Positions 2,537 to 60,388 of a stretch of DNA of 60,507 nucleotides are shown here, piece by piece. Position 1 is the first letter of the stretch. Each line of letters begins with the position of its first letter. Made by a program: the position numbers and the translations under genes. Source of the stretch: Acidobacteriota bacterium (GTDB taxonomy: Bacteria > Acidobacteriota > Vicinamibacteria > Vicinamibacterales > CAVVIG01); assembly GCA_028876655.1 (NCBI GenBank), contig JAGWRA010000189.1, forward strand, positions 1 through 60,507, given 5' to 3'. The notes under the pieces were generated by a model. That model was not told the origin of the DNA. It did not search any database and saw nothing but the letters and a program-made list of their open reading frames with translations.

Positions 2537-4048
2537 ATGCGTCTGGTGTTCCGTGGTCTCATGGCGGCGGCGATCGTCTCGGCGTTGACCCTCGTCGTCC
2601 AGACGCGGGGCGTGGTCCCTTCACAGGCGGCGGACGTCGAAATCCAGATCGGGCAGAAGCTGTTCAGCGAGGGGAAGTACCCGGCGGCGCTCGCGATCTT
2701 CCGCGAGGCCCGGGCGCACGCGCCGGAGCCCGGCCAGCAGCAGCGCGCGCTCGAGGGGATGGTCCGCTCGGCGCTGCGGGTGGCGGAGTTCGACCTGGCC
2801 ATGCGGTCGGCGACTGAACTGGTGGCGGCGCAACCGCAGAGCGCCGATGCCGCCGCGCTGTACGGGGATGCGCTCTGGTCCGACGGGCTGTTCCCCGAGG
2901 CGGAGCAGCAGTACCGCCGGGCGGTGCAGCTGAACCCGAAGACGCCGCGCGCGCTGAACGGACTGGCGGTGGTGCTCTCCTCGGAGAGCCGGCTGCAGGA
3001 TGCCCTGCAGGCGGCGCAGGACTCGCTGACGCTCGATCCCGCCCAGGAGGCGGCGCATCACACCGTCGGGATGATCTACGAGCGGATGCACCGCTACGAG
3101 GACGCCGCCGATGCGTACGCGCAGTACGTCGAGCGGCTGCCGAACAAGGACCAGAGCCTGAAGGCGGCGTGGGTGCGGGCCGAGATCAAGTTCCTCCGGT
3201 CGTTCGAGGGGCGGACGCCGTTTGCGATCGAGGGGGGCGACGCGCGCACCGTCTACGCGGTGCCGTTCCAGCTGGTGGGCAACAAGATCGTCGTGCAGGC
3301 GCGGCTGAACGGCGGTCCGGAGCACGATCTGGTCGTCGACACGGGCGCCGAGCAGACGGTGGTCTCGGAGTACACGGCGCGGGCGTTGAAGATGAAGGCG
3401 GTGACCTACACGCTGAGCGCCGGCGTGGGGGACATCGGCCTGCGCGGCCTCGAGCTGGCGCGGCTGGACTCGCTGCAGGTCGGTTCGCTGGTGATGCGCA
3501 ACGTGGCGTGCGTGGTGAAGAACCCGGCGCTGAAGGACATGCCGACCGGCGAGAGCGACAGCTTCTCGCCGCTGGCGCTGGGGCTGTCGATGCGGCTCGA
3601 CTACGACCGCGACATCCTGTACATGGCGCGGCAGCTCCCCGAGGAACGGGCCGACGTGCAGCTGCCGCTCTACCTGAACCGGCTGGCGACGGTGCGGGGG
3701 ACGGTGGACGGCCGGCATCCGGCCAGCTTCGTGGTCGACACGGGCGGCGAGGTGATCTCGATCAGCCAGTCGATGGCCGGCTCGCTCGACCATCAGCCGT
3801 TCCAGCGGATTCCGTTGAAGGTCTACGGGACGTCGGGGTGGGACCGGGACGCCTTCCTGATGCCGGGCGTCGATCTCGCGTTCGCCGGGATCCGCTTCAC
3901 GAACTTCCCGGTGGTCGTCCTGAACCTGCGGGCGCCGAGCGTCCTGCTCGGGTACCAGCTGGGCGGCATCGTCGGGCAGAAGTTCCTGAGCCGCTATCGG
4001 GTGACGATCGACCTGCAGAAGAGCGTGCTCGGCCTGAGTAAGCTGTAG
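2537..4048 (+). CDS. secreted TPR-repeat protein with two retropepsin-like aspartyl protease domains
   Basis: Signal peptide, then a TPR-like region (YGDALWSDGLFPEAEQQYRRAVQLNP). Two D-T-G motifs: VVDTGAEQTVVS (3338-3346) and VVDTGGEVISIS (3737-3745). Confidence 0.7.
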   Translation: MRLVFRGLMAAAIVSALTLVVQTRGVVPSQAADVEIQIGQKLFSEGKYPAALAIFREARAHAPEPGQQQRALEGMVRSALRVAEFDLAMRSATELVAAQPQSADAAALYGDALWSDGLFPEAEQQYRRAVQLNPKTPRALNGLAVVLSSESRLQDALQAAQDSLTLDPAQEAAHHTVGMIYERMHRYEDAADAYAQYVERLPNKDQSLKAAWVRAEIKFLRSFEGRTPFAIEGGDARTVYAVPFQLVGNKIVVQARLNGGPEHDLVVDTGAEQTVVSEYTARALKMKAVTYTLSAGVGDIGLRGLELARLDSLQVGSLVMRNVACVVKNPALKDMPTGESDSFSPLALGLSMRLDYDRDILYMARQLPEERADVQLPLYLNRLATVRGTVDGRHPASFVVDTGGEVISISQSMAGSLDHQPFQRIPLKVYGTSGWDRDAFLMPGVDLAFAGIRFTNFPVVVLNLRAPSVLLGYQLGGIVGQKFLSRYRVTIDLQKSVLGLSKL

Positions 4049-7685: not shown

Positions 7686-8121
7686 ACCCAGTACCTCACG
7701 GACCTGTGAATCGTCCCGACGAGTGTCCGCCGGACCGGGAACCGTCGGGTCCCCTCGCGGGCCCTCATCGGTTCCTGCCGGCGTCGGTGCAGGCATCTTA
7801 CTGTGACCGTGACGGTTGCCGCAATGAGACCGACCGCCGCCCGCCGGATCGCAAGACACGTGCCCGCGCGCCGGCGAGGCGAGTCTCCTGCCGCGCGACG
7901 CTCCCGGCCGACCGCTCCCGCGCGCTGTCCTCTGCGCCGGCCAGACGAGGCCGCCGGGGGAGGACACTGCGGGACACCGTCCGTGCCGATTCACCGGGGC
8001 TGCGAGGTGGGAAATCGGCGACAATAGGACGGCTGACGGGCCCTGGCGTCGATCCGGGGCGGTCCGGCGGCGGGAATACGCGCGCGGGCCGTGGTGTTGT
8101 TTTACTGATGCCTGCGAATCG

Positions 8122-8721
8122 ATGTTTGGACGGCGACGTGAATCCTCGGGCGGGCCGGACGATGACGACGGCCGGAGCGGGCAGTTCGCCCGCGAGGCGC
8201 TCTCGTACCTCGACCGTTTGTACGGGGCAGCACTCCGGCTGACCGGGAACCCGGCCGACGCCGAGGACCTCGTGCAGGAGACCTACCTCAAGGCGTTCCG
8301 GTTCGCCGATCGGTTCGAGCCCGGGACGAACCTGCGGGCCTGGCTGTTCACCATCCTGCACAACACCGAGCGCAACCGCCGCCGGGACGCGGCGCACGAC
8401 ATGTCGACACCCGACAGCGACGCCGTCGATCGAGCCGCCGCCCGGCCTGGGCAGGCGCCGACGCCCGAGCAGCTGCTGCTGCGCGAGACGCTGGACGCCG
8501 ATCTGCAGTCGGCGCTCGACGGCCTGCCGCCGGCCTTTCGCGAGGCGGTCTGGCTGCGCGACGTGGAGGAGCTGGCGTATGCCGACATCGCGCGGGCGCT
8601 CGGCGTGCCGATGGGCACCGTGATGTCGCGGATTTCCCGGGGACGACGGCTGCTGTACGAGCGTCTCACTGCCCGGAGGGAGGCGTCCGGCCCGGGCGCC
8701 GAGGTGGTCCGGCAGGGCTAG
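8122..8721 (+). CDS. ECF-type RNA polymerase sigma-70 family factor
   Basis: Region 2 ([36 protein letters not shown]) and region 4 ([23 protein letters not shown]) are recognisable. Confidence 0.85.
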
Positions 8722-8761
8722 GGGACGGCCAGATGGGGACGGGGCCCCAAGTGGGAGAGAG

Positions 8762-8783
8762 CGCGTGGGGGTGGGGCCCCGCG
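8762..8783 (+). repeat. partial copy of the GC hairpin (CGCGTGGGG-gtgggg-CCCCGCG)
   Basis: Same hairpin sequence as at 8845-8870. It is preceded by the G-tract motifs GGGGACG (8721, 8735) and GGGCCCC. Confidence 0.6.
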
Positions 8784-8786
8784 AGC

Positions 8787-8870
8787 GTTGCCGGTCCAAG
8801 CGGCAACGGGGTGGCTATCGAGATCCGGAGCGTGAGCGACGGCAGCGCGTGGGGGTGGGGCCCCGCGCGC
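8787..8870 (+). repeat. 84-nt two-hairpin interspersed element, copy A (between the sigma and anti-sigma genes)
   Basis: Hairpin 1 is GTTGCCG-N7-CGGCAAC (8787-8807). The core GATCCGGAGCGTGAGCGACGGCAGCGC is identical to 11443-11469. Hairpin 2 is GCGCGTGGGG-gtgggg-CCCCGCGCGC (8845-8870). The element aligns without gaps to 11408-11491. Confidence 0.8.
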
Positions 8871-8895
8871 AGTGATATAAGGTGACCGAGTGGCG

Positions 8896-9651
8896 ATGAT
8901 CTCCTGCGGCGATCTCGACGAGCTGGCCACGCCGTATCTCGACGGCGAGGCGATGCCCGTCGCCCGCCAGGCCGTCGACGAGCATCTCGCGGTCTGCCCG
9001 CCGTGCCGCGATCGGCTCGCAGCGGAAGGGACGGCGAGGACGATCGTGCACGAACGCCGGCCGGCCCTCTGCGCCGTGACGGCGCCGCCCGGGCTGCGAG
9101 CCCGCTGTGCCGGTGCGGCGGCCCGCTCCGCGCCGCGGCCGGGGCTGCGGCGCCTGTTCGTCCCGATGTCGGCGGCGGCCACGCTGCTGCTGGTCGTGGG
9201 CGGGCTCATCGTCTACGCCGCCAACAGCCGGTCGGCGACCGTGCTGGCGGCGCAGCTCACGCTGGACCACATGAAGTGCTTCGCGCTGCAGCCCTCCGAC
9301 GCGCCGCCGGTCGACACCGCCTCGATCGATCGGGCGTTCGATGCGCGGTTCGGCTGGAACGTCGACGTGCCGCAGGGCGGGGGGGCGGCCCCCATCCAGC
9401 TGGTGGGGGCGCGGCGCTGCTTCTACGCCGACGGGGCGGTGGCCCACCTGCTGTACCGGCACGACGGGCACGACGTGTCGCTGTTCCTGCTGCCGCACAC
9501 GGCCAGGCCGGAGGGGCTGGTCCACGTAATGGGCCACGAGACGATGATCTGGCCGGAGCGGGACTGGACGTGCGTGCTCGTCGGCCAGGAACCGCCGGCG
9601 GAAATGCAGCGGATCGCGGCGTACGTCCGCGACAGCCTGCACGGACACTGA
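8896..9651 (+). CDS. zinc-binding anti-sigma factor (ZAS type), membrane-spanning
   Basis: HLAVCPPCRDRL gives the H-x3-C-x2-C motif. One hydrophobic segment, AAATLLLVVGGLIVYAA. Located downstream of the ECF sigma gene. A GTG at 8890 is an alternative start. Confidence 0.7.
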   Translation: MISCGDLDELATPYLDGEAMPVARQAVDEHLAVCPPCRDRLAAEGTARTIVHERRPALCAVTAPPGLRARCAGAAARSAPRPGLRRLFVPMSAAATLLLVVGGLIVYAANSRSATVLAAQLTLDHMKCFALQPSDAPPVDTASIDRAFDARFGWNVDVPQGGGAAPIQLVGARRCFYADGAVAHLLYRHDGHDVSLFLLPHTARPEGLVHVMGHETMIWPERDWTCVLVGQEPPAEMQRIAAYVRDSLHGH

Positions 9652-9712
9652 CCGGTCCGGCCGCCGATCGCGGCGGCGCGGCCGAGACCGCATCAGGGAA
9701 GAGGATGGACCG

Positions 9713-10246
9713 ATGACGAGACGGAGCATCTGGATCGGCGTTGCCGCGGTGGCCCTGCTGCTGGCGGGGAGCGGCTTGTCGGCCCGCACGGCGGCGGCCG
9801 CGAAGCGGCCGGCGGTGTGCGAGGCCGGCGGCAAACCGGCCGACCTGAACTTCACGCTGAAGGACATGCACGGCAAGCCGGTGCACCTGAGCGCCTACAA
9901 GGGGCAGGTGATCGTCCTGGACTTCTGGGCGACGTGGTGCGGTCCGTGCAAGCTCGAGATCCCCGGCTTCGTCGAGCTGCAGGCGAAGTACGCGAAGCGG
10001 GGCTTCACGGTGCTCGGCGTGTCGATCGACGACAAGGCGCCGCTGCTGCCCCCCTTCGCGAAGGAATTCAAGATGAACTATCCGGTGCTGGTGGGCCTCG
10101 GCGAGCAGAAGTTCCAGGACGCGTACGGCCCGATGTGGGCCGTGCCGACGACCTTCGTGATCGGGCGCGACGGCACGATCTGCCGCAAACACATCGGCAT
10201 CTCCTCCATCCAGGAGTTCGAGCGGGAGATCCAGGCGCTGCTCTAG
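9713..10246 (+). CDS. TlpA/ResA-family thiol-disulfide oxidoreductase
   Basis: Signal/anchor segment followed by VIVLDFWATWCGPCKLEIP (thioredoxin WCxxC motif). Confidence 0.85.
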   Translation: MTRRSIWIGVAAVALLLAGSGLSARTAAAAKRPAVCEAGGKPADLNFTLKDMHGKPVHLSAYKGQVIVLDFWATWCGPCKLEIPGFVELQAKYAKRGFTVLGVSIDDKAPLLPPFAKEFKMNYPVLVGLGEQKFQDAYGPMWAVPTTFVIGRDGTICRKHIGISSIQEFEREIQALL

Positions 10247-10323
10247 TGCGTCCTGTAGTAAGATCGCAGGTGACCGGTGGCCCCGGCAGATCGGCCGCCA
10301 CCGGCGGCAGGGAGCGACGCATC

Positions 10324-10545
10324 ATGAAGGGATTTACGCACGCACGACTCGCCTGTGGATGCCGGGTGGCGTTCCGCGAGGGTGTGCAGGGCAGTCCGGT
10401 CACCGTGGTGATCGACGAGAAGTCGCCCGCGTGCCGGCTCCCGCTGCACGTCCGCGACCTGCCGGTGTTCGACTACCGCGAGGCGTTGCGGCCGTCGACC
10501 CGCCTGGGGTTCCCGGGCGAAGAGGAATACGAGGAAGAGGGGTAG
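10324..10545 (+). CDS. hypothetical small protein (73 aa, acidic C-terminus)
   Basis: ATG preceded by GGGAG. Third codon positions are strongly G/C as in neighbouring genes. No recognisable domain. Confidence 0.35.
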   Translation: MKGFTHARLACGCRVAFREGVQGSPVTVVIDEKSPACRLPLHVRDLPVFDYREALRPSTRLGFPGEEEYEEEG

Positions 10546-10578
10546 CCCCGGCGGGGTGGCGTCGCGTGCCCGGTTGAC

Positions 10579-10598
10579 GGCCCGGTGGATTCCGGGCC
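10579..10598 (+). terminator. hairpin GGCCCGG-tggatt-CCGGGCC
   Basis: 7-bp perfect stem followed by GTTCGTGTGT. It lies between converging genes. Confidence 0.4.
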
Positions 10599-10630
10599 GT
10601 TCGTGTGTACGGGGTCCGCGGAACGGCCCG

Positions 10631-11362
10631 CTAGAACCTGATCCGCAGATCGGCGACCAGCGGCAGATGGTCGGAGGCGACCAGCGCCATGCGCGAGCGG
10701 GGGAGGTCGAGTTTCTGGACCTCCACGCGTCCCGCATAGTAGATGTGGTCGAGGTGCAGGATCGGGAAGAACCCCGGGTAGGTCCGCCGCCGCTGCAGGT
10801 GTGAACGGAGGTCGATGCTCTTCAGCCGGTCGCTGAGCAGCGTCGTCGTCAGCCCCTTCATCCATTCGTTGAAGTCGCCCAGGACCACTTTCGTCCCCGC
10901 GACCCGCCGATCGCCGACGAGGCCGGCCAGCCGCTCGGCCTGGTACTGCCGTTCGAGATAGGCGGTGCCGAGGTGGACGTTGTACAGGTGCAGCGTGTGC
11001 CCATGGACGTCGAGGTCCGTCCGCTGCAGGCAGCGCGGCTCGCAGGTCTTCCAGGTGAGGTCGTACTGGAGGTGCTGCCGGATCGGAAAGCGGCTGAGGA
11101 CGACGTTGCCGAACAGGCGGCCGCGCAGCCGGCGGGCCGGCGCCATCGCCCAGCCCATGGCGAGCGCCGCACCGATCTCCTCGGCATGGCCGCCGCCGTC
11201 CTGGCCGGCGCCGACGACCTCCTGCAGGGCCACGATGTCAGCGTCCACCTGGGCCAGCACGGCCGCAATCCGGTCGGGACGGGTCCGCCCGTCCAGCCCG
11301 CGGCAGCGGTGCACGTTATAGGTGGCGACGCGGAGGGTGCGTCCCGGCGGCGTCTCGGTCAC
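10631..11362 (-). CDS. endonuclease/exonuclease/phosphatase (EEP) family protein
   Basis: LRVATYNVHRCRGLDGRTRPDRIAAVLAQVDADIVALQEV and C-terminal SDHLPLVADL are typical EEP motifs. Start set at the GTG at 11362; the longer ORF runs through the repeat element. Confidence 0.8.
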   Translation of the reverse strand: MTETPPGRTLRVATYNVHRCRGLDGRTRPDRIAAVLAQVDADIVALQEVVGAGQDGGGHAEEIGAALAMGWAMAPARRLRGRLFGNVVLSRFPIRQHLQYDLTWKTCEPRCLQRTDLDVHGHTLHLYNVHLGTAYLERQYQAERLAGLVGDRRVAGTKVVLGDFNEWMKGLTTTLLSDRLKSIDLRSHLQRRRTYPGFFPILHLDHIYYAGRVEVQKLDLPRSRMALVASDHLPLVADLRIRF

Positions 11363-11369
11363 TGAGGCT

Positions 11370-11375
11370 ATGATA
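11370..11375 (-). promoter_or_regulatory. candidate -10 box (TATCAT) giving a leaderless transcript for the EEP gene
   Basis: On the minus strand the sequence reads CCCGTATCAT-agcctca-GTG. This resembles CCCGTATAAT-gccgcc-GTG at 47-64. Confidence 0.3.
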
Positions 11376-11407
11376 CGGGAAAGCCGTCCGGCTTGCGGTT
11401 CGGCGGG

Positions 11408-11491
11408 CTGGCCAGTCCAGGCGGCCACCCCGTGAATCGCAGGATCCGGAGCGTGAGCGACGGCAGCGCATGGGGGTGGGGCCCCATGCGA
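11408..11491 (+). repeat. 84-nt two-hairpin interspersed element, copy B (upstream of 11513..11818)
   Basis: Gap-free alignment to 8787-8870. Hairpin 2 is CGCATGGGG-gtgggg-CCCCATGCG, a perfect 9-bp stem. Confidence 0.8.
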
Positions 11492-11512
11492 ATTGAAGAA
11501 TGAGGCACGGCT

Positions 11513-11818
11513 ATGGCGAAGCTGCAATCCGAGATCGAGGTGCCGTGCCCGACCTGCGGCACGACGCTGGTCATCGACCTGAACCTGGGGCGGGTGGTCG
11601 GCCATCGCGAGGCCGAGCGGCCCGGCAGCCGGCCGGAGCTGAGCGACGCGCAGCGCATCCTCGCCGAGGAAGCGGCACGCCGCGAGGCGATCTTCCAGCA
11701 GTCGGTGGCCAGCGAGAAGACGCGGGGCGACGCGCTGGCGAAGCGGTTCGAAGAGGCGCTCCGGCAGGCGAAGGAAGAGCCGGTCACGCGCCCGGAGCGC
11801 GATTTCGATCTGGACTGA
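11513..11818 (+). CDS. hypothetical protein with an N-terminal CPxC zinc-ribbon-like motif and a charged helical tail
   Basis: MAKLQSEIEVPCPTCGTTLVIDLN. ATG preceded by GAGG. Coding-like codon bias. Confidence 0.5.
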   Translation: MAKLQSEIEVPCPTCGTTLVIDLNLGRVVGHREAERPGSRPELSDAQRILAEEAARREAIFQQSVASEKTRGDALAKRFEEALRQAKEEPVTRPERDFDLD

Positions 11819-12488
11819 GCCCCCGGAATCCTCCTGGCAGCTCCGACCACGTCTCGCGGCCCGGATAGTCCACGGGCCGCCGGTCCGGGTACTGCGCCTT
11901 GAACGCGCGGTACCAGGCGCGCAGCCGCTCGACGCGCCGGTCGGACGTGCGGATCGGCCGGTGCGGGTAGTCGAGCAGCAGCCGTTCCGCCTTCCAGACG
12001 TTCCGCTTCGAGAACCGCCAGTCGTACCCGCCCGCCAGCCGCATGTCGACGACGGCGTACCCGGTGATGCGGCCGGTGAAATCGATGTACGGGTCGACGT
12101 AGCTGAGCGCCAGCGCGCGCGCCGTGCGGAAGACCGGCCGGCGCCCGTGCAGCCCCGGGTCGCGCGACCGCGCGACCGAACCCCACCGATCCCCCCGCCG
12201 GTAGACGAACAGCGTGTGATCCAGGTCGTCGATCGATTCGAAGCTCAGGATGAGCGGCGGGTAGCCGTGCTGCTCCATGATGACGGCCGCGGTGAGCGCC
12301 GCCTCGAAGCAGTGGGCCGTGCGCGTCCGGACGACCTCGCGGAAGCTGCGGAGCGTGATGCCGTCCGGCTCGGTGTTGTAGCGCAGCCCGTTCAGGAAGT
12401 GCTGGACGCGCGCCGGCGTCGACAGCCGGCGGATGAGCGCCCGCTCGCGGGGCAGGAAGGCCGACAGGGGTGGCGACGAGAAGGTCAC
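11784..12488 (-). CDS. hypothetical protein, possibly a transglutaminase/papain-like Cys-His fold
   Basis: Candidate catalytic residues lie in AHCFEAAL and LDHTLFVY. The GTG start overlaps the SCO stop (GTGA), which suggests translational coupling. Confidence 0.5.
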   Translation of the reverse strand: MTFSSPPLSAFLPRERALIRRLSTPARVQHFLNGLRYNTEPDGITLRSFREVVRTRTAHCFEAALTAAVIMEQHGYPPLILSFESIDDLDHTLFVYRRGDRWGSVARSRDPGLHGRRPVFRTARALALSYVDPYIDFTGRITGYAVVDMRLAGGYDWRFSKRNVWKAERLLLDYPHRPIRTSDRRVERLRAWYRAFKAQYPDRRPVDYPGRETWSELPGGFRGLSPDRNRAPGA

Positions 12489-13348
12489 CGCGCGGGCGTC
12501 GCCCCGGTGAGGTCGGCGAGCACCTGGTCGGGCGTCCAGGTGTTGCCGTCGTAGATCTTCACGAGCCGCCCGTCGGGATCGACGATGGCCGTCCGCAGGC
12601 TGTGCGTGATGAGGCCCGCGCCGGCGTCGCCCGGCGTGCGGATCACGGAGACGCCGAACTCGCCGGCGATCTCGTCGATCGTCGCCGGCGTGCCGGTGGC
12701 GAAGGTCCAGACCGCCGGGTCGGCCCCGAGCGCGCGCGCGTGGGCCTCGAGCACCGGCGGCGTGTCGTGGTCCGGGTCGAAGCTCACCGACAGCAGCCGG
12801 ACGCGGCCGCGCAGCGAGGGGCGCGCCGCGATGGCGCGCTGCAGCGCGGCGAAGTGACGGTCCATCAGCGGGCAGTAGTCCGGCAGCGGGCAGCGGGTGT
12901 AGATGAACGTGAGGACGAGCATCCGGCCGCGGAAGGCGGAGAAGCGCCGGGATCGGCCGTCCTGATCGACGAGCGTCGCCTCGGGCACCGTCTGGCCCGG
13001 TTCGAGCGGCAGGACCGCCGGGGCGGCGATCGCGCCGGGCAGGGGCATCGAGCCGACCGTGGTGAGCGCGGTGAGGTACGAGGCGGTCGGCGTGACGACC
13101 AGCGTGCCGTTCACCAGGTCGCCCGGCTGCTTGCCGGCGAGGAGGGTGGAGGGCCGGGCCTTGAAGGGCATGGTCATCGCGCCCATCAGGCCCGGGATCT
13201 CCTCGTGCCGGATGGTGACGTCCTGCGTCGTCGGGTTGACCGCCAGGATCTGACCCTCGATGCGGTACTGGTGTGCGAGCGGGCGGTGCTGGCAGGCGGC
13301 CGCCGCGGTCGCGAGCAGCAGGACGGCGGACAACCGGCGGCGCATCAT
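12485..13348 (-). CDS. SCO1/SenC family copper chaperone with an N-terminal CusF-like metal-binding domain
   Basis: LVLTFIYTRCPLPDYCPLM gives the SCO CxxxC motif. The N-terminal IEGQILAVNPTTQDVTIRHEEIPGLMGAMTMPF resembles CusF-type domains. Start at 13348 (MMRRRLSAVLLLA, signal-like). Confidence 0.8.
   Translation of the reverse strand: MMRRRLSAVLLLATAAAACQHRPLAHQYRIEGQILAVNPTTQDVTIRHEEIPGLMGAMTMPFKARPSTLLAGKQPGDLVNGTLVVTPTASYLTALTTVGSMPLPGAIAAPAVLPLEPGQTVPEATLVDQDGRSRRFSAFRGRMLVLTFIYTRCPLPDYCPLMDRHFAALQRAIAARPSLRGRVRLLSVSFDPDHDTPPVLEAHARALGADPAVWTFATGTPATIDEIAGEFGVSVIRTPGDAGAGLITHSLRTAIVDPDGRLVKIYDGNTWTPDQVLADLTGATPAR

Positions 13349-59727: not shown

Positions 59728-60388
<661 letters not shown>

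What the first reader, a model, noticed from the sequence alone, without database searches (positions are those of the whole stretch)
8787..8870. 84-nt two-hairpin element with compensatory substitutions, ending 22-25 nt upstream of a start codon (copy A)
8787-8870 aligns without gaps to 11408-11491. A 27-nt core, GATCCGGAGCGTGAGCGACGGCAGCGC, is identical in both copies. Both predicted stems differ by paired changes. In hairpin 2, G8849/C8866 becomes A11470/T11487, and the T-G wobble pair (8850/8865) becomes T-A. In hairpin 1, T8789/A8805 becomes G11410/C11426. Such covariation argues for selection on structure. Both copies are on the + strand and end 25 nt (ATG 8896, anti-sigma factor) and 22 nt (ATG 11513, CPxC protein) before a start codon, just upstream of the RBS-like sequences AAGGTGA and AATGAGG. 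This is the layout expected for a cis-regulatory leader, such as a riboswitch, thermosensor or protein-binding site, and not only for a REP-like terminator.
Basis: seen in the sequence. Interest (0 to 1): 0.65.

Follow-up and report, generated by a model that had tools for sequence, protein, structure and literature searches.

The report
Dispersed repeat that docks at start codons
The two "leader hairpins" are copies of a roughly 100-base repeat found about 90 times in this soil Acidobacteria genome; it has repeatedly landed exactly at the start codons of unrelated, often essential genes, and its A/U-rich end supplies or abuts their start codon, so it is a mobile "translation-start cassette" and not a riboswitch.

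Summary
There are not two copies, though. The genome holds about 85-95 units in about 70-100 loci, 16 of them tandem arrays. The family occurs only in Vicinamibacterales.

Each unit has four parts:
- a weak hairpin 1 and a variable spacer;
- an invariant central hairpin, CCG-GA-GC-[GUNA]-GC-GA-CGG;
- a G+C-rich hairpin 2 with real covariation;
- an A/U-rich tail, U(G/A)A-ANA-AUG.

Copies run in the sense of the flanking genes (43 against 7). The tail AUG lies in the downstream reading frame far more often than chance, both here and in other genomes. Congeners have empty sites at nuoH, surE, mnmE, trmD and other genes. These show recent insertions exactly at the native start codon. In some cases the element's AUG stands where the ortholog's native start lies, or takes over from it.

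Downstream genes are unrelated housekeeping genes, and Rfam gives no match. I found no inverted ends, no target duplication and no linked Y1 transposase.

Most likely this is a non-autonomous mobile repeat that acts as a portable 5'UTR and translation-initiation region. Its closest analogues are MIRU and Neisseria REP2. How it moves is unknown.

The parts
8122..8721 (+). Its stop codon is followed by the repeat-derived spacer.
   Evidence: ORF and coding-potential call. The same gene pair with the same spacer type is present in congener G002. The sigma identity was not tested against Pfam here.
8722..8786 (+). Degenerate and truncated upstream units. 8734-8748 (TGGGGACGGGGCCCC) is a decayed hairpin 2. 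8761-8785 is a hairpin-2-only partial unit. The whole 174-nt sigma/anti-sigma spacer is therefore repeat-derived.
   Evidence: Motif hits. Alignment with the three-unit array at the orthologous G002 locus.
8787..8807 (+). Copy A hairpin 1 (7 bp here; weak across the family).
   Evidence: Fold. Only 64% of cells are paired over 43 copies.
8825..8842 (+). Copy A central hairpin CCG-GA-GC-[GUGA]-GC-GA-CGG, with tandem G.A pairs and a GNNA loop.
   Evidence: Predicted in all folds. All stem positions are invariant in 43 copies and only loop position 3 varies. The sequence is identical in other families of the order.
8846..8869 (+). Copy A hairpin 2: CGCGUGGGG-GUGGGG-CCCCGCGCG.
   Evidence: 98% of cells paired. 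Covariation at two pairs: GC 24 / AU 17, and UA 32 / CG 7. The variant switches, keeping the pairs, between the G000 and G002 orthologous copies.
8870..8895 (+). Copy A degenerate tail (CAGUGAUAUAAGG; the family's AUG has decayed to AAG), followed by the SD-like AAGGUGA and a spacer up to ATG 8896.
   Evidence: Alignment to the family consensus. The G002 ortholog still has ..AUAGAUG|GUGACGAGUGGCG AUG.
8896..9651 (+). Anti-sigma factor gene (zf-HC2) downstream of copy A.
   Evidence: Pfam PF13490, residues 4-38.
11369..11374 (+). -10-like TATGAT box upstream of copy B. It is conserved in all four congeners and is the likely promoter of the CPxC gene.
   Evidence: Alignment of four genomes. The consensus scan found no full -35/-10 promoter, so this is an inference.
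11408..11428 (+). Copy B hairpin 1.
   Evidence: Fold.
11446..11463 (+). Copy B central invariant hairpin, inside the 27-nt core 11443-11469.
11467..11490 (+). Copy B hairpin 2: CGCAUGGGG-GUGGGG-CCCCAUGCG.
11491..11502 (+). Copy B tail AAUUGAAGAAUG. It carries an in-frame stop (UGA, 11494-11496) two codons before the family AUG (11500-11502). Here that AUG is out of frame with the gene. The following AGG gives the SD-like AAUGAGG, 8 nt before ATG 11513.
   Evidence: Family alignment. An in-frame stop at -6 is present in 33 of 38 copies. Frame analysis.
11513..11818 (+). CPxC small protein gene downstream of copy B.
   Evidence: Coding-potential call. Orthologs in G001-G003 start at the same ATG but lack the element.
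59835..59898 (-). Third family member in the window. It is the 5' half (hairpin 1 and core) joined to a different repeat (..CCGCCTTCGCGCC..GGCGCTTCGGCGAGC..GCCGAAGCCC..) in place of hairpin 2 and the tail. It is in sense, about 108 nt upstream of the gene 59727-57250.
   Evidence: nhmmer hit covering model positions 5-69. Sequence. About ten such composite copies occur in the genome.

Best explanation
The flagged sequences are two members of a polar, non-autonomous dispersed repeat that I call 'type A'. A unit is about 100 nt, and tandem arrays have a period of 75-83 nt. The family is confined to Vicinamibacterales (Acidobacteriota).

A unit reads 5' to 3': a weak hairpin 1, a fast-drifting spacer, a sequence-invariant central hairpin, a strong G+C-rich hairpin 2 kept by base-pairing, and a single-stranded A/U-rich tail U(G/A)A-ANA-AUG.

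Shown:
- The element has inserted repeatedly, after the species of this genus split, in the sense orientation. Its 3' end lies exactly at (within 2 nt), or one SD-length upstream of, the start codon of unrelated genes. These include genes inside essential operons (nuoH, trmD, rplL).
- The tail AUG is then the only available start codon of many conserved proteins. It can stand where the ortholog has a GUG start, or take over from a native start.

Inferred:
- The element is transcribed as the 5'UTR or intercistronic spacer.
- Its self-contained hairpins keep G+C-rich upstream RNA from pairing with the start region.
- The tail offers an open A/U-rich initiation site with its own AUG.
- A stop two codons upstream blocks in-frame read-through.
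- When the AUG is out of frame it opens a very short uORF that often ends in an AUGA/GUGA overlap with the true start (termination-reinitiation).
These features would let the repeat sit in front of essential genes without silencing them.

Copy B is a G000-specific insertion into the 5'UTR of the CPxC gene. Copy A is the last unit of an older, decaying array between what appears to be an ECF sigma gene and its anti-sigma gene.

The way it moves is unknown. There are no inverted ends and no target duplication. The 3' junction is precise and the 5' junction is variable, sometimes with loss of native spacer. This pattern suggests a 3'-anchored, microhomology-type or start-site-directed joining.
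For: Copy number and arrays:
- 86 core matches, 122 nhmmer hits in 102 loci of which 16 are arrays, and 95 covariance-model hits.

Orientation:
- 43 sense against 7 antisense in codirectional gaps, p = 2e-7.

Tail AUG in the coding frame, tested without a gene caller:
- 25 of 39 in G000 (p = 8e-5), 27 of 35 in about 30 other MAGs (p = 1e-7), and 10 of 13 in two other families of the order (p = 0.002).

The tail AUG gives canonical N-termini:
- SurE, FolD, MnmE and TsaD. Pfam domains start at residues 4 (SurE), 6 (FolD) and 7 (MnmE).

Empty orthologous sites in congeners:
- nuoH: TAGAGACCC|ATG becomes a 186-nt gap ending ..CUAAACG|ATG.
- surE: a three-unit array lies between TATAATTGAC and ATG.
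- mnmE, trmD, a leuB-like gene, prmA and a BNR gene also have empty sites.
- FolD and PrmA orthologs start with GTG where G000 has the element's ATG.
- In the BNR gene the native ATG is ATT in G000, and the element's ATG lies 5 codons upstream in frame.
- Copy B's site is empty in three congeners.

Other support:
- The sister 'type B' element sits at the same start codon in G002 for the SDR, MoxR and FolD genes.
- The in-frame stop at -6 is kept in 33 of 38 copies, as TGA or TAA.
- Out-of-frame copies give uORFs that end in an ATGA/GTGA overlap in 6 of 16 cases.
- Predicted unpaired probability over -12..+2 is 0.56 against 0.41 for control genes, p = 8e-7.
- Hairpin 2 shows covariation. Core and hairpin 2 are conserved between orthologous copies while the spacer drifts.
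- Downstream genes are functionally unrelated.
- Distribution: 19 of 41 genomes of the order, patchy. In a 301-genome sample of the phylum, no hit outside the window's own genus. All hits in 185,579 species genomes are Vicinamibacterales-type MAGs.
Against: - There are no expression data. Only DNA metagenome runs hold this genome, and their contigs break at the repeat. Transcription through the element and initiation at the tail AUG are therefore inferred.
- The two flagged copies are not the clearest examples. Copy A has lost the AUG, and copy B's AUG is out of frame with no nearby stop.
- The tail has at best a 3-nt SD (GGA), although the organism does use SD sequences (36% of genes against 10% background).
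- The gain in predicted accessibility is modest.
- About a quarter of copies are antisense, convergent or far from a start.
- The sister type B, which has the same hairpin 2 and tail, shows little orientation bias (19 against 12). The tail alone therefore does not dictate placement.
- Wobble statistics do not tell whether hairpin 2 is selected as RNA or as DNA.
- No mobilising enzyme was identified.
- My gene calls are home-made.
Confidence: 0.72

Rival explanations
1. A regulated cis-acting leader: a riboswitch, an RNA thermometer, or a binding site for one regulator. It would switch the downstream gene in response to a signal. In its broad form, the invariant central hairpin ties about 100 genes to one RNA-binding protein or sRNA, forming a post-transcriptional regulon.
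For: - The position is right for a leader.
- Hairpin 2 covaries.
- The central hairpin is invariant in sequence across families of the order. This looks like a specific recognition site and not only a structure.
- The sense strand folds better than the antisense strand.
Against: - Downstream genes have no common function: ETF, MltG, ArgG, Mdh, RplL, NuoH, TsaD, TrmD, FolD, MnmE, SurE and others.
- Copies are near-identical, occur in tandem arrays, and are present or absent at orthologous sites within one genus.
- Nothing in the fold sequesters the SD or AUG. The start region is more open than in ordinary genes.
- Rfam gives no match at E <= 1.
- The invariance of the central hairpin is equally well explained by recognition by the machinery that copies the element.
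Confidence: 0.1
2. A REP/BIME-like extragenic palindrome family. Its role would lie at the 3' end of the upstream transcript: a terminator, a 3'-exonuclease block (mRNA stabiliser) or an RNase processing site. Its nearness to the next start codon would be incidental.
For: - Hairpin 2 is stable and G+C-rich.
- Copies are intergenic and number about 100.
- Some copies lie at 3' ends of convergent genes (9 loci).
- In several codirectional gaps the element fills the gap from the upstream stop onward (distances of 1-10 nt).
Against: - No U-tract follows the hairpins on either strand, and the scan found no terminator-like site.
- Copies sit inside essential operons ahead of nuoH, trmD and rplL.
- The distance to the upstream stop is variable (about 0-150 nt), whereas the distance to the downstream start is fixed.
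- Units form direct arrays, not inverted REP pairs.
- G000 has no Y1/RAYT transposase. The single Y1 genes in G001-G003 have no element nearby, and across 19 genomes Y1 presence does not track element presence.
Confidence: 0.08
3. A purely selfish repeat with random insertion. The start-codon pattern would be only a survivorship effect, and the tail would have no role in translation.
For: - Distribution among genomes is patchy.
- Decayed copies exist, such as copy A, and remnants such as C120 against L021.
- Type B shows little orientation bias.
- Some sites have been hit repeatedly by different repeats, which could mean that they are simply permissive.
Against: - Junctions exact to the nucleotide at the start codon occur in about a third of copies. 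Random landing in gaps of roughly 100 nt would give about 1%.
- For SurE, MnmE, NuoH and FolD no other in-frame start exists between the tail AUG and the conserved domain, so the tail must function.
- The stop at -6 is conserved as TGA or TAA.
- The same pattern appears independently in distant lineages.
Confidence: 0.08

Closest known systems
MIRU (mycobacterial interspersed repetitive units; Supply et al. 1997, as summarised in PMC12548453 and PMC3184786)
   Same: - Units of 40-100 bp, dispersed and in direct tandem arrays whose unit number varies between relatives.
- They lie between genes of operons, in the same direction as the genes.
- They are described as inserting at start codons so that the downstream gene stays translated.
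- About 40-50 loci per genome.
   Different: - MIRUs couple through an ORF that runs through the unit and overlaps the flanking stop and start codons by 4 nt. Here no conserved internal ORF exists: periods of 75-83 nt are not multiples of 3 and there is no conserved internal start. The element instead brings an AUG of its own, preceded by a stop.
- MIRU filled sites were reported with tetranucleotide direct repeats. None are found here.
- The phylum is different. Sequence relatedness was not tested.
Neisseria REP2 repeats and Borrelia plasmid IR sequences (Parkhill 2000; Morelle 2003; Dunn 1994; reviewed in PMC3184786)
   Same: - The repeat has no terminal inverted repeats.
- Two internal stem-loops lie towards the 5' end, followed by a ribosome-binding region and an ATG.
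- It is found immediately upstream of ORFs.
   Different: - REP2 also carries a promoter and marks a co-regulated gene set (cell-contact regulon). Here no promoter-like site is found, the genes are unrelated, and many copies are operon-internal.
- REP2 has 14-26 copies, against about 90 here.
- There is no evidence of sequence homology (not tested).
BOX elements of Streptococcus pneumoniae (boxA-boxB(n)-boxC; PMC3049150)
   Same: - Modular build, with internal modules amplified in tandem.
- Folded RNA that is transcribed as an adduct to operons.
- boxC can supply a start codon.
   Different: - BOX has terminal inverted repeats and is thought to be moved by an IS transposase.
- BOX is enriched near, but not fused to, start codons.
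- BOX-encoded ORFs lacked SD sequences and conserved products.
REP/REPIN-RAYT systems
   Same: A short G+C-rich palindrome repeated about 100 times in intergenic DNA, with compensatory maintenance of the stem.
   Different: - No GTAG/CGTC head and no inverted doublets.
- No RAYT in this genome, and no link to the Y1 genes of its relatives.
- The element is polar and three times longer.

Membership tests
   Rfam gives no match at E <= 1. Downstream genes are unrelated. The start region is predicted unpaired.
   Copy B and at least 9 other loci are empty in congeners.
REP / REPIN-RAYT | A 20-40 nt palindrome with a GTAG or CGTC head, arranged as inverted pairs | tested here: not met
   The unit is about 100 nt and polar, and forms direct tandem arrays. 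No such head is seen in the alignment.
REP / REPIN-RAYT | A cognate Y1 (RAYT) transposase in the genome, flanked by the repeats | tested here: not met
   PF01797 is absent from G000, which is 97% complete. The single Y1 genes in G001-G003 have no element within 2.5 kb. Y1 genes are present in 8 of 12 element-bearing genomes and in 4 of 7 element-free genomes.
MITE | Terminal inverted repeats | tested here: not met
   The 5' end (N)TGCC.. and the 3' end ..GAAUAAUG are not complementary.
MITE | Target-site duplication | tested here: not met
   The longest shared word between the 5' and 3' flanks averages 4.63 nt, against 4.55 in permuted pairs (p = 0.32). Alignments of empty and filled sites show none.
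MIRU-type intercistronic repeats | Dispersed direct tandem units in intergenic regions, co-oriented with the flanking genes | tested here: met
   16 arrays. 43 sense against 7 antisense. Unit number differs between G000 and G002 at shared loci.
MIRU-type intercistronic repeats | Located at the start codon of the downstream gene | tested here: met
MIRU-type intercistronic repeats | An ORF running through the unit whose ends overlap the flanking stop and start codons | tested here: not met
   Periods of 75-83 nt are not multiples of 3, and there is no conserved internal start. Only one frame is stop-free, and it has no conserved initiator.
MIRU-type intercistronic repeats | Sequence homology to mycobacterial MIRUs | not tested
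   No MIRU sequence was compared. The family here is confined to Vicinamibacterales.
Neisseria REP2 / Borrelia IR type | Two stem-loops followed by an RBS region and ATG, directly upstream of ORFs, with no inverted ends | tested here: met
   Anatomy. Placement.
Neisseria REP2 / Borrelia IR type | An internal promoter | tested here: not met
   No sigma-70-like site was found in or around the two copies. The conserved parts are G+C-rich hairpins, and many copies are operon-internal.

The most novel reading that the evidence does not exclude
The element, with its sister families that share hairpin 2 and the tail, is moved by an as yet unknown mechanism. That mechanism joins the 3' end of the element to translation start sites: the start codon itself, within 2 nt, or the base just 5' of the SD. 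It uses no inverted ends and makes no target duplication. This would be a start-site-directed insertion system in which the element carries a replacement initiation region. A consequence would be that about 100-190 genes per genome, many of them essential, share one 5' leader with an invariant hairpin. The cell, or the element's own machinery, could read that hairpin as a common handle.
Probability: 0.3. Interest if true: 0.8.

Novelty: new variant of a known kind. Interest (0 to 1): 0.6.

Why it matters
Repeats that settle at start codons and bring their own initiation signals have been noted only anecdotally (MIRU, REP2), and none has a known mechanism. This family offers an unusually clean data set.
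- There are dozens of insertions exact to the nucleotide in front of essential housekeeping genes.
- Empty sites are available in sister species.
- Two element types have hit the same start codon independently.
- In several cases the element's AUG stands at, or has taken over from, the ortholog's native start.

This makes three questions testable:
- How can a mobile sequence find translation start sites?
- What makes a minimal, context-proof initiation region in a 70% G+C organism?
- Do such repeats rewire expression of core genes in uncultured soil Acidobacteria?

There is also a practical consequence. Gene callers will misplace starts at these loci, and short-read assemblies break there.

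Tried and rejected
- Rfam scan of 8000-12500 at E <= 1: nothing.
- Promoter and terminator consensus scan: nothing.
- RAYT/Y1 transposase as mobiliser: absent from G000, not adjacent to elements in G001-G003, and no correlation across 19 genomes.
- Target-site duplication: none. An apparent ATGTC..CACC repeat at the leuB-like locus was not supported genome-wide.
- Filled-versus-empty comparison starting from G002 copies: most loci are shared. The few empty sites had messy boundaries because intergenic DNA at about 85% genome identity is too diverged. The reverse design, starting from G000 start-codon copies, worked.
- Public reads: only DNA metagenomes hold this genome, and Logan contigs end inside the repeat. 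This gave no RNA evidence and no strain-level junctions.
- A conserved ORF inside the unit, as in MIRU: rejected.
- An extended tail motif (..AUG-RAGGAC/GGAGAC..): I could not decide whether it belongs to the element or is the native SD, because GGAGAC and AGGA contexts are also common in ordinary genes.
- G.U against C.A counts to decide the functional strand of hairpin 2: uninformative, 4 against 3.
- A loose pattern search for the composite 3' module was too permissive and gave nothing usable. A fuzzy-regex script timed out.
- The per-region identity table is distorted by 1-2 nt offsets. Only the visibly in-register pairs were used.

Full report
**Check of the observation.** The two stretches are as described. 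8787-8870 and 11408-11491 align without gaps at 66 of 84 positions. The 27-nt core is exact in both copies and is not expected by chance. The paired differences in both stems are at the stated coordinates. The downstream genes are a zf-HC2 anti-sigma factor starting at ATG 8896 and a small CPxC protein starting at ATG 11513.

**It is a genome-wide family.** The window is contig C148 of a 4.19-Mb, 70% G+C draft genome.
- The core occurs 86 times with up to 5 mismatches.
- An iterated nhmmer profile finds 122 hits in 102 loci. Sixteen of these are tandem arrays of 2-3 units with a 75-83 nt period.
- A covariance model built from 43 full copies (A1, R1) finds 95 hits.
- A third, composite member lies in the window at 59835-59898 on the minus strand.
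- The 65 nt before copy A (8722-8786) are decayed or truncated units. The whole 174-nt spacer between the upstream sigma-type gene and the anti-sigma gene is therefore repeat-derived.

**Anatomy**.
- Hairpin 1 is weak, with 64% of cells paired.
- A spacer of about 15 nt follows and is not conserved.
It has tandem G.A pairs and a GNNA loop. It is invariant except for loop position 3.
- Hairpin 2, CGC(R)(Y)GGGG-GUGGGG-CCCC(R)(Y)GCG, is 98% paired. Two positions covary (GC 24 / AU 17, and UA 32 / CG 7), and all 500 shuffles score lower.
An in-frame stop (UGA or UAA) lies two codons before the AUG in 33 of 38 copies.
- No promoter-like or terminator-like site is present, and Rfam has no match.

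**Placement.** I made my own gene calls: 3620 genes covering 91% of the genome.
- Type-A copies in gaps between codirectional genes are in the sense orientation 43 times and antisense 7 times (p = 2e-7). The looser hit set gives 60 against 14.
- The distance from the element to the upstream stop varies from about 0 to 150 nt. The distance from hairpin 2 to the downstream start peaks at 10-19 nt, which is the tail AUG.
- A test that needs no gene caller scores the coding frame over the 240 nt after the tail AUG. The AUG is in the coding frame in 25 of 39 cases in G000 (p = 8e-5), 27 of 35 in about 30 other MAGs (p = 1e-7), and 10 of 13 in two other families of the order (p = 0.002). Antisense coding downstream is rare.
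- Of the 16 out-of-frame copies, 6 give uORFs of 4 to 8 codons that end in an AUGA or GUGA overlap with the real start.

**The downstream genes are unrelated.** They include ETF-beta, MltG/YceG, ArgG, Mdh, RplL, NuoH, TsaD, TrmD, FolD, MnmE, SurE, a BMC shell protein, RpiB, IlvD, MoxR and an ABC ATPase. In SurE, FolD and MnmE the Pfam domain begins at residue 4, 6 and 7 counted from the tail AUG. For SurE, MnmE, NuoH and FolD I saw no other in-frame start between the tail AUG and the conserved part.

**Insertions at start codons.** I compared 14 loci where the tail AUG is the start with their orthologs in three congeners (G001-G003, about 75-90% DNA identity).
- nuoH: the congeners have the upstream gene's stop 6-9 nt before the ATG (TAGAGACCC|ATG). 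G000 has 186 nt there, ending in the element's tail, directly before the same ATG.
- surE: the congeners read TATAATTGA(C/G)GA(G/A)C|ATG. G000 has a three-unit array between TATAATTGAC and ATG.
- mnmE, trmD, a leuB-like gene, prmA, a BNR-repeat gene, an SDR gene and a membrane-protein gene also have empty orthologous sites.
- FolD and PrmA orthologs start with GTG where G000 has the element's ATG.
- In the BNR gene the native ATG of the congeners is ATT in G000. The element's ATG lies five codons upstream, in frame.
- The leuB-like gene shows ATGATG, which is the element's ATG followed by the native one. trmD keeps its GTG as ..AATAATGTG.
- For the SDR, MoxR and FolD genes, G002 carries the sister 'type B' element at the very start codon where G000 carries type A.
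- Copy B of the finding is itself absent from all three congeners. They keep the -10-like TATGAT box (11369-11374) and the same ATG.
- Copy A is older. G002 has a three-unit array at the same place.
- There is no target duplication and there are no inverted ends. The 5' junction varies, and at prmA the whole native spacer is lost.

**Constraint and distribution.**
- Between orthologous G000 and G002 copies, hairpin 1 and the spacer drift. The central hairpin and hairpin 2 are retained. At the copy A locus hairpin 2 switches variant without losing pairs.
- The family is present in 19 of 41 genomes of the order, in a patchy pattern. Counts include 94, 58 and 38 copies in the congeners and 82 in another family of the order.
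- In a 301-genome sample of the phylum there was no hit outside the window's own genus.
- A scan of 185,579 species genomes for core plus hairpin 2 returned only MAGs labelled Vicinamibacterales, Vicinamibacteria or Acidobacteria, plus one labelled Betaproteobacteria. The latter is syntenic with this genome and 75-85% identical to it, so it is probably mislabelled.

**Mobiliser.**
- PF01797 (Y1/RAYT) is absent from G000.
- Each congener has one weak Y1 gene, with no element nearby. In G003 it lies in a segment that G000 lacks.
- Y1 presence does not track element presence (8 of 12 against 4 of 7 genomes).
- The enzyme therefore remains unknown.

**How it probably works.**
- Shown: the placement, orientation and frame statistics; the insertion polymorphisms; the cases where the element's AUG stands at, or replaces, the native start; and the pairing constraint on hairpin 2.
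- Inferred: the element is transcribed as a leader or intercistronic spacer. Copies inside the nuo operon and upstream of trmD and rplL argue that it neither terminates transcription nor blocks expression.
- Inferred: its hairpins fold on themselves and the tail stays single-stranded. Predicted unpaired probability over -12..+2 is 0.56, against 0.41 in 300 control genes (p = 8e-7).
- Inferred: initiation occurs on an A/U-rich, SD-poor site. The organism otherwise uses SD moderately: 36% of genes against 10% background.
- The conserved stop at -6, and the UAAUG overlap found in many copies, would end any ribosome arriving in two of the three frames right at the AUG.

**Comparison with known systems.** The nearest analogues are functional, not homologous.
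- MIRUs are described as mobile units that insert at start codons with a coupled internal ORF (PMC12548453, citing Supply 1997; PMC3184786).
- Neisseria REP2 and Borrelia IR repeats have two stem-loops followed by an RBS and ATG, upstream of ORFs, and also carry a promoter (PMC3184786).
- BOX elements are modular, and boxC can supply a start codon (PMC3049150).
- I found no paper on such repeats in Vicinamibacterales.
- An earlier agent of this scan reached a similar reading for the same family in another genome (e1-2211221). I treated that as a lead and tested it independently here.

**Verdict.** The 'cis-regulatory leader' reading is right about position and strand, but wrong about kind. This is a new, order-specific variant of the rare class of dispersed repeats that dock at start codons and carry their own initiation region. 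The mechanism of spread is unresolved and is the most interesting open point.

Noticed in passing
G000 contigs, e.g. C147 (oriented positions about 11142 and 11244, minus strand), C104, C106, C130; also loci L008-L012 and L059: A sister repeat, 'type B', has about 56-71 copies in G000. It has a different 5' part (GCGCCTGCGGCCATGCCGAGC..ATCCGAGGCGAGGCATCAGCGTCAGTTCGC) but the same hairpin 2 and the same tail. A small 'type C' has 5 copies. The hairpin-2 motif occurs 186 times in the genome, only 67 of them with the type-A core. Type B shows much weaker orientation bias (19 against 12).
   Followed up: partly
window 59835-59898 (minus strand) and about 9 other G000 loci (C22, C34, C43, C101, C165, C167, C202, C268): These are composite copies. 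Hairpin 1 and the core of type A run into a different repeat of about 100 nt (..CCGCCTTCGCGCC..GGCGCTTCGGCGAGC..GCCGAAGCCC..) exactly at the loop of hairpin 2. This is either a nested insertion into the hairpin or an alternative 3' module.
   Followed up: no
L189 (G002, upstream of the CPxC ortholog); L065, L063, L067, L080, L071 (G002/G003 upstream of mnmE, surE, the leuB-like gene, mltG): Tandem 7-8-nt arrays (GGGGATT, GGGATTC/GAATCCC, GAGGAAT, TGAAGAAT/ATTCTCA) occupy the same position, directly upstream of start codons, in genomes that lack the element there. Some resemble reiterated tail sequence. They may be related to, or compete with, the elements for the same sites.
   Followed up: no
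L094, L097, L106 (JBLMXQ01 contigs, 'Betaproteobacteria bacterium MAG252'): This MAG carries the element. It is 75-85% identical and syntenic to contigs C4, C28 and C70 of the window's genome, with 68-72% G+C. Its public taxonomic label is almost certainly wrong, and it is a Vicinamibacterales genome.
   Followed up: partly
G000 C205 about 3000-3260, against L063, L076 and L086: In three congeners surE has a TATAAT box ending 8 nt before its ATG, which suggests a leaderless or near-leaderless mRNA. In G000 a three-unit array of about 240 nt has been inserted between that box and the ATG. This would turn it into a long-leader gene.
   Followed up: no
window 11363-11407: Only 45 nt separate the divergent minus-strand gene (GTG start at 11362) from copy B. 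They hold a -10-like TATGAT that is conserved in four genomes, and a small hairpin (GCCGTCCGGC). The stretch between this box and the CPxC ATG is hypervariable between species.
   Followed up: partly
G003 contig C61 about 8165-8509 (L054), against G000 C248 3017-3021: The single weak Y1-transposase-like gene of G003 lies in a segment of about 650 nt that is absent from the otherwise collinear G000 region. The gene is therefore itself an indel between congeners.
   Followed up: no
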